Source of the DNA: a virus
Lineage: Duplodnaviria > Heunggongvirae > Uroviricota > Caudoviricetes
Reading direction: 5' to 3' (one strand)
Length of the DNA: 4,830 nucleotides
Virus record (IMG/VR): IMGVR_UViG_3300029107_000017
Part shown: in pieces, positions 299 to 2,283 of the stretch
Layout of the letters: every line of letters begins with the position of its first letter
How positions within the stretch are numbered: the first letter of the stretch is position 1
The notes under the pieces: generated by a model
Database searches by the model: none
Told to the model about the DNA's origin: nothing
The model's input: only the letters and a program-made list of their open reading frames with translations
Program-made: the position numbers and the translations under genes

Positions 299-517
299 TT
301 AACGCGGGTATGTAATTATTCTGGCAATGCTTAATGCCGCTGCTTTTTCCAGCCTGGTGATATCCTGCTCCAGAGCGGACAGATTTTCAGCCTGCTTAGC
401 CCTGGCTTCATTGGCCCATTTCAGATCCTGCGCTGCATTAATTTTCTGGCGCATCCACTCATAAAGTTCATCATCGGTATAGTCTGGCGCGATGATGATG
501 GGTTCTCGTTTCTGCAT
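299..517 (-). CDS. ydfC: Small prophage protein, YdfC-like (72 aa), unknown function
   Basis: ORF track 299..517 (-). ATG at 517 preceded by GAGGA with a 6-nt spacer. Third gene downstream of the DicA-like repressor; size (72 aa) and position match ydfC of the Qin dicB operon as I recall it. Confidence 0.7.
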   Translation of the reverse strand: MQKREPIIIAPDYTDDELYEWMRQKINAAQDLKWANEARAKQAENLSALEQDITRLEKAAALSIARIITYPR

Positions 518-546: not shown

Positions 547-675
547 TCAGCCGTTATATTTTGCCGAACTGGAAAGCGCCTGTTTAAACTCACTGAAGCT
601 GAGAGCTTCTTCGCCTTCGGCAAGGCCTTCGAAGTATTCTTCGTAAGCCTTTTCCATGATTGCGTCGAAATCCAT
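547..675 (-). CDS. ydfB: Small prophage protein, YdfB-like (42 aa), unknown function
   Basis: Not in the ORF track (below its length cutoff). My translation of the - strand: ATG at 675, MDFDAIMEKAYEEYFEGLAEGEEALSFSEFKQALSSSAKYNG, TGA at 547-549. The ATG sits 1 nt after the ydfA-like stop (TGAtATG); AGGTGAG lies upstream. Size and position match ydfB as recalled. Confidence 0.6.
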   Translation of the reverse strand: MDFDAIMEKAYEEYFEGLAEGEEALSFSEFKQALSSSAKYNG

Positions 676-676
676 A

Positions 677-832
677 TCACTCACCTGAATTTCTTTCCAG
701 CCAGCGACGCGCGCCAGTTTCGGTTTTAAACGTTTTGCTTTTGGTATACGTCATCGCGGTGAACGTGCCGTCCTGGTTGGGAAACACGCCGCACACCAGA
801 GATTCGTTGTTGCTAAGATCGATAGTATCCAT
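677..832 (-). CDS. ydfA: Small prophage protein, YdfA-like (51 aa), unknown function
   Basis: Within track ORF 677..886 (-), whose listed start is a GTG at 886. The internal ATG at 832 has GAGG 5 nt upstream and gives 51 aa (MDTIDLSNNESLV...RWLERNSGE), the size I recall for YdfA. Confidence 0.7.
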   Translation of the reverse strand: MDTIDLSNNESLVCGVFPNQDGTFTAMTYTKSKTFKTETGARRWLERNSGE

Positions 833-904
833 GCTGACCTCATTTCCCCTTAACGCCGGGGTAGCGGAACTGTTTGCTGAGAACACCGTGCGGTGTCTTG
901 ATGA

Positions 905-965
905 GTAGAATTTAGAATAACCTAAGAATGATGGTCAAGCTTTTTGTGTAGAAAAACCTAAGTTT
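905..965 (-). promoter_or_regulatory. Putative leftward promoter for the ydfA-like operon, flanked by two operator-like palindromes
   Basis: Read on the - strand: TTGACC (rc of 933-938), 18-nt spacer, TAAATT (rc of 909-914). Palindromes TTTAG-aataac-CTAAG (911-926) and TGTAG-aaaaac-CTAAG (947-962) bracket the -35. No transcript data. Confidence 0.4.
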
Positions 966-973
966 CTTGATGT

Positions 974-1010
974 AAAAAACACAAGTATTTGAAAGTTTGT
1001 GCTTTTTATT
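974..1010. terminator. Weak bidirectional terminator-like hairpin
   Basis: A6 (974-979), stem CACAA (980-984) / TTGTG (997-1001) with a 12-nt loop, then CTTTTTATT (1002-1010). AT-rich 5-bp stem, so predicted stability is low. Confidence 0.25.
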
Positions 1011-1036: not shown

Positions 1037-1444
1037 TTATTTATTTGCGCTTCTTTTGCGAGCTTTGAGTAGTTCTTCAAAAAGTTTGTTGAAATTCTCA
1101 ACTCGAGCACGCATCTCTGACAACAGAGCCTTTTGCTCTGACTCAGGCAGTGCGTCGAACAGTTGAAGCAACTCTTTTTGATCTTCTGTCAGATTGACTG
1201 GCTGATTATCTGGGATCGGTTCGCCTGGTTGCTTATCTTCATCTCCAAAAAGAAGCCAGGTCGGCGAGCACTGAAGCGCCTGGCTCAGTGCGAATAATCT
1301 CTTCCCCGCTGGCTGTGTTTCATCTCTTTCCCATTGAGAAATTGTTACGTGAGCCACTTTGACCAGCTTACCTAATGCGGCCTGAGACAGTTTTAATTTT
1401 TTACGCCTGTATAAGAGGCGAGCACCGAAGGTTTCGTTTTTCAT
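1037..1444 (-). CDS. dicA: DicA-like prophage repressor (XRE-family HTH, 135 aa, no peptidase domain)
   Basis: ORF track 1037..1444 (-). Same length as E. coli DicA (135 aa) and shares long motifs with it as I recall the sequence: SQWER, LFALS..LQCSPTW.LFGDEDKQP, LPESEQ, EMRARV.NFNKLFEELLKAR. Divergent from a Cro-like gene. Confidence 0.85.
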   Translation of the reverse strand: MKNETFGARLLYRRKKLKLSQAALGKLVKVAHVTISQWERDETQPAGKRLFALSQALQCSPTWLLFGDEDKQPGEPIPDNQPVNLTEDQKELLQLFDALPESEQKALLSEMRARVENFNKLFEELLKARKRSANK

Positions 1445-1520
1445 ATTAGGTAATTCTAATTTCTCTTGACTTAGGTTTCTCTACAATCTAGTTTCCTTAG
1501 GAAAATCTAAGGAGTTCGAT
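1445..1520. promoter_or_regulatory. Divergent promoter/operator region between the repressor and the Cro-like gene
   Basis: Three YTTAG-N6-CTAAR sites: ATTAG-gtaatt-CTAAT (1445-1460), CTTAG-gtttct-CTACA (1470-1485), CTTAG-gaaaat-CTAAG (1496-1511), centres about 25 bp apart. Rightward elements: TTGACT (1466-1471), TACAAT (1482-1487), TAAGGAG (1508-1514). Leftward: TAGAAT (rc of 1453-1458) 8 nt before the repressor ATG. Confidence 0.55.
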
Positions 1521-1748
1521 ATGTTGAAAATTGATGCTATAGCGTTTTTTGGCAGCAAAACAAAGCTTGCCAATGTCGCAGGAGTTAGGCTGGCAAGCGT
1601 TGCAGCATGGGGGGAACTGGTTCCTGAAGGTCGCGCGATGCGCCTGCAAGAGGCATCCGGCGGGGAACTTCAGTACGACCCCAAAGTTTATGACGAATAT
1701 CGTAAGGCAAAGCGGGTGGGGCGGTTGAACAATGAAAATCACCCCTGA
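1521..1748 (+). CDS. dicC: Cro/DicC-like small HTH regulator (75 aa)
   Basis: ORF track 1521..1748 (+). TAAGGAG SD with a 6-nt spacer before the ATG. HTH-like segment GSKTKLANVAGVRLASVAAW. Divergent from the DicA-like repressor, as dicC is in Qin. Confidence 0.8.
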   Translation: MLKIDAIAFFGSKTKLANVAGVRLASVAAWGELVPEGRAMRLQEASGGELQYDPKVYDEYRKAKRVGRLNNENHP

Positions 1749-2283
1749 ACAGGTTTGTGAGGCTCTAGATGCCTGGGTATGCCGACCAGGAATGACACAG
1801 GAGCAGGCGACGATATTAATCACGGAAGCATTCTGGGCTCTGAAAGAACGCCCGAACATCGATGTTCAACGCGTCACGTTTAATGATGGCGAGGTTGATC
1901 AACGGGCGCTGGGCGTTAACCGGGTGAAGATATTCGAACGCTGGAAAGCTATCGACACCAGGGATAAGCGGGAAAAATTCACGGCGCTGATTCCGGCAAT
2001 TATGGAGGCTATCCGGATCAGCGATTTCAGGTTGTATTGTGAAATTACTGACGGAAAAAGCATTACGTACATGATCGCCGGGTTAAACAAAGAATATGGC
2101 GATGTGGTGGAGTCCGGGCTGCTTTTTGCGGATCCATCTGTTGTGGAACGTGAGACTGACGAGCTTATAGAAAAAGCTATTGCTTTCAAGCATGCGTATC
2201 GTCAGCAATATCAATATTACTTTGCAGATAAACAAATGTCTGCCAGGGGTTCGTATGAGTATCGATGCACTACGATGGGCTAA
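1732..2283 (+). CDS. YdaT-family protein (183 aa), CII-like regulator or putative toxin
   Basis: ORF track 1732..2283 (+). Overlaps the Cro-like gene's 3' end by 17 nt. MKI... N-terminus and the segment KREKFTALIPAIMEAI resemble Rac YdaT (QREKIQKLIPAILAIL) as I recall it. Confidence 0.7.
   Translation: MKITPEQVCEALDAWVCRPGMTQEQATILITEAFWALKERPNIDVQRVTFNDGEVDQRALGVNRVKIFERWKAIDTRDKREKFTALIPAIMEAIRISDFRLYCEITDGKSITYMIAGLNKEYGDVVESGLLFADPSVVERETDELIEKAIAFKHAYRQQYQYYFADKQMSARGSYEYRCTTMG

What the first reader, a model, noticed from the sequence alone, without database searches (positions are those of the whole stretch)
905..965. Second operator pair about 540 bp away, bracketing the putative ydfA-operon promoter
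Two further copies of the palindrome (911-926, 947-962) flank a TTGACC -35. The site at 947-962 read on the - strand (CTTAGgtttttCTACA) is nearly identical to the middle site of the intergenic operator (CTTAGgtttctCTACA). This suggests the same repressor controls the downstream small-gene operon, possibly with looping between the two operator clusters.
Basis: partly seen in the sequence, partly recalled or inferred. Interest (0 to 1): 0.5.

Follow-up and report, generated by a model that had tools for sequence, protein, structure and literature searches.

The report
Left operator-promoter of DicA-type prophage
The two palindromes are real and are almost certainly the left-hand operator sites through which a DicA-type prophage repressor shuts off the early-left (ydfA) promoter, the counterpart of the known dicBp promoter of E. 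coli K-12 prophage Qin, so the finding is correct but ordinary.

Summary
The sites at 911-926 and 947-962 match the CTTAG-N6-CTAAG palindrome of the dicA-dicC intergenic operators. A matrix trained only on those three sites scores them 19.2 and 16.9 bits; the next best site in the window scores 6.1.

They bracket a minus-strand sigma-70 promoter: TTGACC at 938-933, an 18-nt spacer, TAAATT at 914-909. The upstream site lies at about -60 to -45. The downstream site fills the spacer and overlaps the -10.

The window is the immunity region of a Qin/DicA-type lambdoid prophage. It carries dicA-like, dicC-like, ydaT-like and replication genes, with ydfABC to the left. This immunity type occurs in 751 of 5426 complete E. 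coli genomes, including O157:H7.

K-12 Qin has the same layout at dicBp, which DicA represses 22-fold (PMC10448788). In nine sequences of this immunity type the operator arms never vary, while 30 of 105 other intergenic positions do. Across 14 DicA-family loci with other operator sequences, the left sites change together with the right ones (permutation p = 2e-5).

Looping between the two clusters is untested. This is the PL/OL analogue of a known system: a new allele, low novelty.

The parts
947..962 (-). Promoter-distal left operator (OL2-like), CTTAGGTTTTTCTACA on the minus strand, about -60 to -45 relative to the predicted start
   Evidence: 16.9 bits. All 16 bases are invariant in 9 same-immunity sequences. 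The equivalent site is present in K-12 and in heteroimmune loci.
911..926 (-). Promoter-proximal left operator (OL1-like), CTTAGGTTATTCTAAA on the minus strand, about -24 to -9. It fills the spacer and overlaps the -10.
   Evidence: 19.2 bits. The arms are invariant and only two spacer positions vary. The K-12 equivalent is GTTAGTCATGGCTAAT.
933..938 (-). -35 hexamer TTGACC of the PL-like (dicBp-homologous) promoter
   Evidence: It is identical in K-12, and TTG is kept in almost all DicA-family loci. One relative, PPompW_132418, has TTAACC.
909..914 (-). -10 hexamer TAAATT with an 18-nt spacer. The alternative is CTAAAT at 910-915 with a 17-nt spacer. The predicted start is near A902.
   Evidence: Invariant in 9 sequences. 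The start site is inferred from spacing and has not been mapped.
1037..1444 (-). dicA-like repressor gene (135 aa, helix-turn-helix N-terminal domain), the CI analogue
   Evidence: NCBIfam NF007257 DicA at 241.6 bits, cut-off 101. Pfam HTH_3. 63% identical to K-12 DicA. The N-terminal domain resembles that of the P22 C2 repressor, E = 1e-21.
1445..1511 (.). Right operator cluster between dicA and dicC: 1445-1460, 1470-1485 and 1496-1511
   Evidence: Nearly invariant in 9 sequences. 1496-1511 corresponds to K-12 Oc, the site shown to bind DicA in vivo (PMC3441716).
1521..1748 (+). dicC-like (Cro analogue) gene
   Evidence: NF007282 DicC at 164.9 bits, cut-off 130. Pfam P22_Cro. 81% identical to K-12 DicC.
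833..902 (-). Predicted 70-nt 5' leader of the ydfA transcript, with hairpins at 882-897 and 846-861 and the conserved box GTTCCGCTA at 862-870
   Evidence: fold. Nearly identical in K-12 and other loci even though the operators differ.
677..832 (-). ydfA (DUF1391), first gene of the controlled operon
   Evidence: Pfam PF07151, E = 2.5e-28. Annotated in the 97%-identical locus L001.
547..675 (-). ydfB
   Evidence: Annotation of L001; ORF list.
299..517 (-). ydfC
   Evidence: Annotation of L001 and PPompW; ORF list.
973..1008 (-). A/U-rich hairpin followed by a U run, between the dicA stop codon and the distal operator. It is terminator-like and would insulate the PL-like promoter from dicA read-through.
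   Evidence: pair I10.: -11.2 kcal/mol, z = -3.7. The stem is kept in same-immunity relatives and the element is absent from K-12. The function is inferred.

Best explanation
The two palindromes are the left operator (the OL analogue) of a Qin/DicA-type lambdoid prophage.

In a lysogen, dimers of the DicA-like repressor encoded just upstream (1037-1444, minus strand) bind both sites. The proximal site (911-926) occupies the spacer and the upstream part of the -10 of a minus-strand sigma-70 promoter (TTGACC, 18 nt, TAAATT). The distal site (947-962) lies just upstream of the -35. Occupancy keeps RNA polymerase off the promoter and silences the early-left operon. That operon starts with ydfA-ydfB-ydfC and, in close relatives, continues into kil or dicB, exonuclease, excisionase and integrase.

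The same repressor acts at the three-site cluster between dicA and dicC (1445-1511), so both early promoters obey one protein. Derepression most likely comes through a Rem-type antirepressor rather than RecA-mediated cleavage, because the protein lacks a cleavable C-terminal domain. The Cro-like DicC probably recognises the same sites.

Shown here: the sites, their statistical significance, the promoter consensus, conservation, and co-variation with the right operator. Taken from the literature on homologues: DicA-dependent repression. Inferred: binding to these exact sites, the transcription start, and the occlusion mechanism.
For: Motif statistics come, and the promoter.

The repressor and Cro analogue pass the curated DicA and DicC family cut-offs. 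The N-terminal domain is homologous to that of P22 C2.

K-12 Qin has the same order downstream of dicA: site, 8 nt, TTGACC, 5 nt, then a site overlapping the -10. It uses half-site GTTAG where the window uses CTTAG, at both the left and the right cluster.

Among 9 same-immunity sequences, 0 of 20 arm positions vary against 30 of 105 other intergenic positions, Fisher p = 0.0035. The six bases between the -35 and the proximal site are highly variable.

Among 14 DicA-family loci, each locus's left sites match its own right sites better than those of other loci, permutation p = 2e-5. Examples are TTGAG/CTCAA in L010-L012 and TAAC-N4-GTTA in L015 and L019. The two left sites are 32-37 bp apart start to start (34-37 in all loci but L010) and flank a TTGnnn hexamer in the loci where they are clear.

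From the literature: dicBp is induced 22-fold by deleting dicA and 165-fold by the antirepressor Rem (PMC10448788). DicA binds Oc in vivo (PMC3441716). In O157:H7, whose dicA, dicC and right operator match the window, DicA overproduction lowers dicB and DicC overproduction lowers dicA and raises dicB (PMC6915034). A rem gene lies in the 97%-identical prophage L001.
Against: There is no binding or transcription data for these exact sites, and the transcription start is not mapped.

The -10 is only a 4-of-6 match and the spacer is 18 nt. The distal site has two mismatches to the perfect palindrome. In K-12, two of the three right-hand sequence-predicted sites (Om and Oa) did not bind DicA in an in vivo assay (PMC3441716), so a weak site may be unoccupied on its own.

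The O157:H7 evidence is qPCR after overexpression and is indirect. The 9 sequences used for conservation are related to one another, so the Fisher test overstates independence.
Confidence: 0.87

Rival explanations
1. The two clusters work as one unit. DicA bound at 911-962 and at 1445-1511 bridges the roughly 500-590 bp between them into a DNA loop, as lambda CI does between OL and OR. The loop would be needed for full repression or for autoregulation of dicA. This is an addition to the best explanation rather than an alternative.
For: There are two clusters of the same motif on either side of the repressor gene, and this layout is kept across the family. There is precedent in lambda CI and in the octameric PaaR2 with its OL-like sites in CP-933P (PMC8630535).
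Against: Nothing here bears on DicA oligomerisation. The protein is 135 aa and lacks the CI-type C-terminal domain. The distance between clusters differs by tens of bp between relatives because of an inserted hairpin. The K-12 dicBp-lacZ reporter placed outside its locus is still repressed 22-fold (PMC10448788), although the fragment limits could not be checked in the text.
Confidence: 0.2
2. The sites are used mainly by the Cro-like DicC, not by DicA, to turn down early-left transcription during lytic growth.
For: DicC belongs to the P22_Cro/DicC family. In lambdoid phages Cro binds the same operators as CI. In CP-933P both PaaR2 and YdaS repress the PL-like promoter about 100-fold (PMC8630535).
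Against: In K-12, deleting dicC did not change dicBp activity whereas deleting dicA raised it 22-fold (PMC10448788). In O157:H7, DicC overproduction raised dicB rather than lowering it (PMC6915034).
Confidence: 0.05
3. The sites are a relic. The motif copies survive by descent in a decaying prophage, but the promoter is dead or no longer regulated.
For: Many carriers are defective prophages. One relative has a weakened -35, TTAACC. The -10 is imperfect.
Against: The arms are invariant while neighbouring bases vary freely. The left and right sites co-vary across genera. The same region is found in 751 complete E. coli genomes. The K-12 copy, in a very decayed prophage, is still active and regulated (PMC10448788).
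Confidence: 0.05
4. The resemblance arose by chance in AT-rich intergenic DNA.
For: The region is AT-rich and the motif arms are short.
Against: None of 200 shuffles reaches the observed count. Shuffles give 0.003 hits per window at the score of the weaker site. Conservation and co-variation also argue against chance.
Confidence: 0.01

Closest known systems
dicBp promoter and its DicA operators in cryptic prophage Qin of E. coli K-12 (Bejar et al. 1988 as cited in PMC10448788; Ragunathan et al. 2023)
   Same: It sits in the same position, between the dicA stop codon and ydfA. The order is the same: distal site, 8 nt, TTGACC, 5-6 nt, then a proximal site overlapping the -10. The transcribed leader and ydfABC are nearly identical. 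The repressor family is the same.
   Different: The repressor is only 63% identical and the half-site is CTTAG instead of GTTAG at both clusters, so this is probably a different immunity specificity. The window has an extra roughly 40-bp hairpin after dicA. Its prophage is more complete, with replication genes to the right and kil, exonuclease and integrase to the left in close relatives. No dicF was found in the window. PMC10448788 speaks of three operators at dicBp; I find two clear ones in both K-12 and the window.
OL/PL of phage lambda and of P22 (CI or C2 repressor; textbook knowledge, also summarised in PMC10448788 and PMC8630535)
   Same: A second operator cluster with the same motif as OR lies on the far side of the repressor gene and overlaps the early-left promoter. 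The N-terminal domain of the repressor is homologous to that of P22 C2, E = 1e-21. From my own knowledge, the 16-bp palindrome with TTA-containing arms resembles P22 operators.
   Different: There are two sites 36 bp apart instead of three sites about 23-24 bp apart. The clusters are about 0.5 kb apart, not 2.4 kb, because no rex-like genes intervene. The repressor lacks the RecA-cleavable C-terminal domain. No N gene follows the promoter.
PL933P with OL1-3 in cryptic prophage CP-933P of E. coli O157:H7 (PaaR2, YdaS, YdaT; PMC8630535)
   Same: It has a lambdoid immunity region with a repressor, a Cro-like protein and a YdaT-type CII analogue (the window has a YdaT homologue). A sequence-predicted left promoter carries copies of the right-hand operators, and reporter assays showed that both regulators repress it.
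   Different: PaaR2 is unrelated in sequence to DicA. A toxin-antitoxin pair lies between the repressor gene and PL. Three operators are reported, and the repressor is known to form octamers.
Gifsy prophage repressors GfoR, GfhR and GtgR with LexA-controlled antirepressors (PMC3121763)
   Same: They are short, non-cleavable repressors of the same broad group as DicA, inactivated by small antirepressors. A rem gene is present in the closest relative of the window.
   Different: The operator sequences differ. Operator layout at the left promoter was not compared here.

Membership tests
Qin/DicA-type prophage immunity region (dicC - dicA - dicBp - ydfABC) | Repressor belongs to the DicA family | tested here: met
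   NF007257 at 241.6 bits against a cut-off of 101, full length 1-135. 63% identity to K-12 DicA.
Qin/DicA-type prophage immunity region (dicC - dicA - dicBp - ydfABC) | Divergent DicC (Cro-like) gene across a short operator-bearing intergenic region | tested here: met
   NF007282 at 164.9 bits against a cut-off of 130. The intergenic region is 76 bp with three motif copies.
Qin/DicA-type prophage immunity region (dicC - dicA - dicBp - ydfABC) | Promoter between dicA and ydfA on the dicA strand, with DicA-type palindromes around the -35 and over the -10 | tested here: met
   The alignment with K-12 shows the same order and near-identical spacing.
Qin/DicA-type prophage immunity region (dicC - dicA - dicBp - ydfABC) | ydfA, ydfB and ydfC follow the promoter | tested here: met
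   Pfam DUF1391 for ydfA. RefSeq annotation of the 97%-identical locus L001.
Qin/DicA-type prophage immunity region (dicC - dicA - dicBp - ydfABC) | dicF and dicB lie further down the operon | tested here: not met
   No Rfam match in the window at E up to 1. The window ends 298 bp after ydfC. Close relatives carry kil (L001) or a dicB-like division inhibitor (PPompW) further left, so this feature varies among members.
Qin/DicA-type prophage immunity region (dicC - dicA - dicBp - ydfABC) | The promoter is repressed by DicA and relieved by an antirepressor (Rem) | not testable with these tools
   Shown for K-12 (PMC10448788) and indirectly for this allele in O157:H7 (PMC6915034; primer matches). 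rem is present in L001.
Lambdoid OL/PL operator-promoter | The left operators share the recognition sequence of the right operators | tested here: met
   A matrix trained on the right sites alone scores the left sites 19.2 and 16.9 bits against a background maximum of 6.1. Left and right sites co-vary across 14 loci, p = 2e-5.
Lambdoid OL/PL operator-promoter | The operators overlap the core elements of a promoter that fires away from the immunity region | tested here: met
   The proximal site overlaps the spacer and the -10. The promoter is on the minus strand, pointing to ydfA.
Lambdoid OL/PL operator-promoter | Three adjacent operators | tested here: not met
   Only two sites score above background between 830 and 1036. 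The same is true of K-12 and other family members.
Lambdoid OL/PL operator-promoter | Long-range OL-OR looping through repressor oligomers | not testable with these tools
   No data on DicA oligomeric state. See the rival explanation.
Lambdoid OL/PL operator-promoter | nutL site and N antiterminator gene directly downstream | tested here: inconclusive
   A conserved box plus hairpin sits in the leader. No N-like arginine-rich protein is among YdfA, YdfB and YdfC. There is no Rfam hit and no twin element after dicC.

The most novel reading that the evidence does not exclude
DicA-type repressors are short, non-cleavable and controlled by an antirepressor. They may nevertheless bridge the conserved two-site left operator and the three-site right operator, about 0.5 kb apart, into a loop that sets the stability of the Qin-type switch. 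The family-wide geometry of two sites about 35 bp apart straddling the -35 would then reflect a repression complex unlike lambda's three-site OL. Nothing here excludes this and nothing directly supports it.
Probability: 0.2. Interest if true: 0.4.

Novelty: new member of a known kind. Interest (0 to 1): 0.15.

Why it matters
This settles what the sites are: the left operator and promoter of a DicA-type immunity region found in about 14% of complete E. coli genomes, including O157:H7 and O111.

In related prophages that promoter drives cell-division inhibitors (kil, dicB, dicF) and recombination and excision genes. Knowing its operators helps predict which co-resident prophages share immunity, and how DicA, DicC and Rem-type antirepressors control toxic prophage genes.

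The comparative table of operator half-sites (CTTAG, GTTAG, TTGAG, TAAC-type and others), paired with their repressor alleles, is a small ready-made data set for studying the specificity of P22 C2-like recognition helices. None of this changes the current understanding of the system.

Tried and rejected
1. A first co-variation test compared whole 14-mers between the left and right regions. It had too much AT-rich background to be useful: diagonal 23.4 against 21.6 off-diagonal.

2. A second test chose the best right-hand palindrome automatically. In several loci it picked spurious palindromes in the dicC coding start. The arms-only test restricted to the true intergenic region replaced both.

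3. I looked for a third left operator, because PMC10448788 mentions three. Nothing above background was found in the window, and K-12 has only a chance-level 3-mismatch hit.

4. An Rfam search of the whole window for dicF or any leader RNA family found nothing at E up to 1.

5. The nutL idea for the leader did not hold up well. RNAalifold on a MAFFT alignment gave only 3 weak pairs. No second copy follows dicC. A literature search found nothing on nut sites in Qin.

6. Bejar et al. 1986 and Cam et al. 1988 are not held in the library. The original operator description is therefore cited second-hand.

7. The motif hit at 802-817 inside ydfA was rejected as chance (4.5 bits).

Full report
**Observation**

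The window has TTTAGAATAACCTAAG at 911-926 and TGTAGAAAAACCTAAG at 947-962. These differ from the perfect palindrome CTTAG-N6-CTAAG by one and two bases.

A search allowing two mismatches finds six matches in 4830 bases against 1.3 expected, and none of 200 dinucleotide-preserving shuffles reaches six. Three matches are the sites between the divergent regulator genes (1445-1460, 1470-1485, 1496-1511). Two are the sites of the finding. The sixth, 802-817 inside ydfA, is weak.

To avoid circularity I built a weight matrix from the three intergenic sites only. It scores 911-926 at 19.2 bits and 947-962 at 16.9 bits, in the same range as the training sites (16.9-20.5). The next best position in the window scores 6.1, and shuffled windows give 0.003 hits at the lower score.

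The promoter scan finds TTGACC (938-933), an 18-nt spacer and TAAATT (914-909) on the minus strand. It is one of only two promoter-like sites in 600-1800. The one refinement is that the proximal site lies in the spacer and overlaps the -10, while the distal site lies upstream of the -35.

**What the locus is**

| Coordinates (strand) | Gene | Evidence |
|---|---|---|
| 1037-1444 (-) | 135-aa DicA-family repressor | NF007257, 241.6 bits, cut-off 101; 63% identical to K-12 DicA; N-terminal domain homologous to P22 C2, E = 1e-21 |
| 1521-1748 (+) | DicC, the Cro analogue | NF007282, 164.9 bits, cut-off 130; Pfam P22_Cro |
| 1732-2283 (+) | YdaT-type protein | Pfam YdaT_toxin; a homologue acts as the CII analogue in CP-933P (PMC8630535) |
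| right of 2283 (+) | replication genes | |
| 677-832, 547-675, 299-517 (-) | ydfA, ydfB, ydfC | |

The whole window is 94-97% identical to prophages in hundreds of E. coli chromosomes and to PPompW prophages of Shiga-toxin-producing E. coli.

In the closest relative, the genes beyond ydfC on the same strand are kil, an exonuclease and the integrase. In PPompW they are a dicB-like division inhibitor, exonuclease, xis and int. The promoter at 909-938 is therefore the early-left promoter of a lambdoid prophage, the counterpart of lambda PL.

**Comparison with K-12 Qin**

In K-12 the stretch between dicA and ydfA reads GTTAGCTATAGCATAC, 8 nt, TTGACC, 5 nt, GTTAGTCATGGCTAAT. The window reads CTTAGGTTTTTCTACA, 8 nt, TTGACC, 6 nt, CTTAGGTTATTCTAAA.

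From about the predicted start onwards, the leader and ydfA are almost identical in the two. The operators and the repressor differ. K-12 uses GTTAG arms at both the left sites and at Oc (TTGTTAGTCATAACTAACAA, PMC3441716), while the window uses CTTAG arms at both clusters. This is the pattern expected of two immunity alleles of one system.

The K-12 promoter is dicBp. Deleting dicA raises a dicBp-lacZ reporter placed outside the locus 22-fold. The Qin antirepressor Rem raises the in-locus fusion 165-fold. Deleting dicC has no effect (PMC10448788). That paper, citing Bejar et al. 1988, states that the region between dicA and dicBp carries operators like those of lambda PL.

**Conservation within this immunity type**

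The segment 880-1520 is found in 751 of 5426 complete E. coli genomes at 94-98% identity, including O157:H7 EDL933 and O111.

In an alignment of nine such sequences, the 20 arm positions of the two left sites never vary. By contrast, 30 of the 105 other positions between the dicA stop and the predicted start do vary (Fisher p = 0.0035). The six bases between the -35 and the proximal site take seven different forms. The -10 is invariant. The -35 varies only in one PPompW copy (TTAACC). The right operator cluster is likewise almost invariant. The sequences are related, so the p value is indicative only.

**Co-variation across immunity types**

A scan of one genome per species returned 19 loci with DicA relatives at 50-84% identity, from Escherichia, Citrobacter, Buttiauxella, Rahnella, Symbiopectobacterium and others.

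Their right-hand palindromes differ:

| Loci | Half-site |
|---|---|
| L003, L004, L007 | GTTAG |
| L010-L012 | TTGAG/CTCAA |
| L015, L019 | TAAC-N4-GTTA |
| L009, L014 | GTTGA-type |

In each locus where the sites are clear, two copies of that locus's own motif lie downstream of dicA. They are 32-37 bp apart start to start (34-37 in all but L010). The first lies upstream of a TTGnnn hexamer and the second over the -10.

I scored only the 6+6 arm positions and excluded the dicA-proximal element. Each locus's two best left sites match its own right region better than the right regions of other loci (mean 21.3 against 19.5 of 24). The permutation p is 2e-5 over 14 non-redundant loci. Two cruder versions of the test were noisier. 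This co-variation is the strongest sequence-only evidence that one protein reads both clusters.

**Direct evidence for this allele**

Pan et al. 2019 studied dicA and dicC in O157:H7 (PMC6915034). Their cloning primers match the window's dicA ends exactly, and their deletion primer matches 1471-1512 with one mismatch. They studied this immunity type.

They report that DicA overproduction lowers dicB mRNA, and that DicC overproduction lowers dicA and raises dicB. The evidence is indirect (qPCR after overexpression), but it points the same way.

**Mechanism**

With the start predicted near A902, the proximal site covers about -24 to -9 and the distal site about -60 to -45. A repressor dimer on the proximal site would block RNA polymerase from the spacer and the -10. 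The distal site may add affinity by cooperative binding, or block contacts upstream of the -35.

The following points are inferred and not shown:
- binding to these exact sites;
- the transcription start;
- any cooperativity;
- the role of DicC at these sites.

In K-12, two of the three sequence-predicted right-hand sites did not bind DicA in an in vivo assay (PMC3441716). A weaker site such as 947-962 may therefore need its neighbour.

**Looping**

The clusters are 498-585 bp apart, depending on which sites are paired. Lambda CI and the unrelated PaaR2 of CP-933P form octamers, and loops are known or proposed for them (PMC8630535).

For DicA I have no information on oligomeric state. The protein lacks a CI-type C-terminal domain. 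The spacing between clusters is not conserved, because a roughly 40-bp hairpin is present here and absent in K-12. The K-12 promoter remains well repressed away from its locus (PMC10448788). Looping remains an open possibility at about 0.2.

**Comparison with known systems, and novelty**

The element works like lambda or P22 OL/PL and is a member of the Qin/DicA-type immunity region. Every defining feature I could test is met except the presence of dicF and dicB, which varies among members and lies outside the window.

It differs from lambda in three ways: two left sites rather than three, a short inter-cluster distance, and a non-cleavable repressor controlled by an antirepressor.

It differs from K-12 Qin in operator half-site and repressor allele, and in belonging to a more complete prophage.

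The kind is known, and the K-12 representative is experimentally characterised. The operators of this allele have not, to my knowledge, been mapped. I rate it a new member of a known kind, interest 0.15.

**Side observations**

- The leader carries a conserved box (GTTCCGCTA, 862-870) followed by a hairpin (846-861). Heteroimmune loci keep the box and a hairpin with different but still pairing stems, some with a GAAAGA loop. The position recalls nutL, but I found no N-like protein, no Rfam family and no twin after dicC.
- The dicA-proximal site 1445-1460 contains TAGAAT eight bases before the dicA ATG. It is conserved even where the operator specificity differs. It is probably the -10 of a leaderless-type dicA promoter as much as an operator.
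- An A/U-rich terminator-like hairpin (973-1008, z = -3.7) separates dicA from the left promoter.

Noticed in passing
window 846-870 and 882-897 (minus strand); L007, L013-L019 downstream of their dicA genes: The predicted ydfA leader has a hairpin at 882-897, a conserved box GTTCCGCTA at 862-870, and a second hairpin at 846-861. Heteroimmune DicA-type loci keep GTTC[C/T]G followed by a hairpin whose stem sequence differs but still pairs (CCCUG/CAGGG, GCCU/AGGC, GCCG-GAAAGA-CGGC and others). The position and form recall nutL. However, there is no N-like protein, no Rfam hit and no second copy after dicC.
   Followed up: partly
window 1445-1460, with TAGAAT at 1458-1453 on the minus strand: The dicA-proximal operator carries a good -10 hexamer eight bases before the dicA ATG, which implies a leaderless or nearly leaderless dicA mRNA, as for lambda cI and paaR2. 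The element is conserved in loci whose operators have other sequences, and K-12 Oa and Om did not bind DicA in vivo (PMC3441716). It may be mainly a promoter element.
   Followed up: partly
window 973-1008 (minus strand): An A/U-rich 12-bp hairpin followed by a U run lies just after dicA (-11.2 kcal/mol, z = -3.7). It is terminator-like in both directions. It is present in same-immunity relatives but absent from K-12 Qin, where the dicA-ydfA spacer is about 40 bp shorter.
   Followed up: partly
L023 (PPompW_132418), aligned to window 933-938: This prophage copy has TTAACC instead of TTGACC at the -35 of the left promoter. EDL933 and the other relatives keep TTGACC. It may be a down-mutation of the promoter in one lineage.
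   Followed up: no
L026 (EDL933), L029 and L023, aligned to window 830-845: In O157:H7 and PPompW copies the sequence diverges from the window right after the leader hairpin, and a different first gene replaces ydfA and ydfB (a 118-aa ORF in PPompW). The mosaic joint therefore lies at the end of the leader.
   Followed up: no
L005, L011, L012: Contigs filed under Collinsella, Bacillota and Veillonella parvula metagenome-assembled genomes carry Qin-type dicA-ydfA sequence. One is nearly identical to E. coli K-12. This is most likely binning contamination.
   Followed up: no
window 1732-2283 (plus strand): The gene after dicC is a YdaT-family protein that overlaps the dicC stop codon. RefSeq annotates it as a toxin, but a homologue in CP-933P was shown to act as the CII analogue (PMC8630535). 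A PRE-like promoter may therefore lie near the dicC-ydaT junction.
   Followed up: no
window 802-817: A sixth two-mismatch match to the palindrome lies inside the ydfA coding sequence. It scores only 4.5 bits with the operator matrix and is probably chance.
   Followed up: yes
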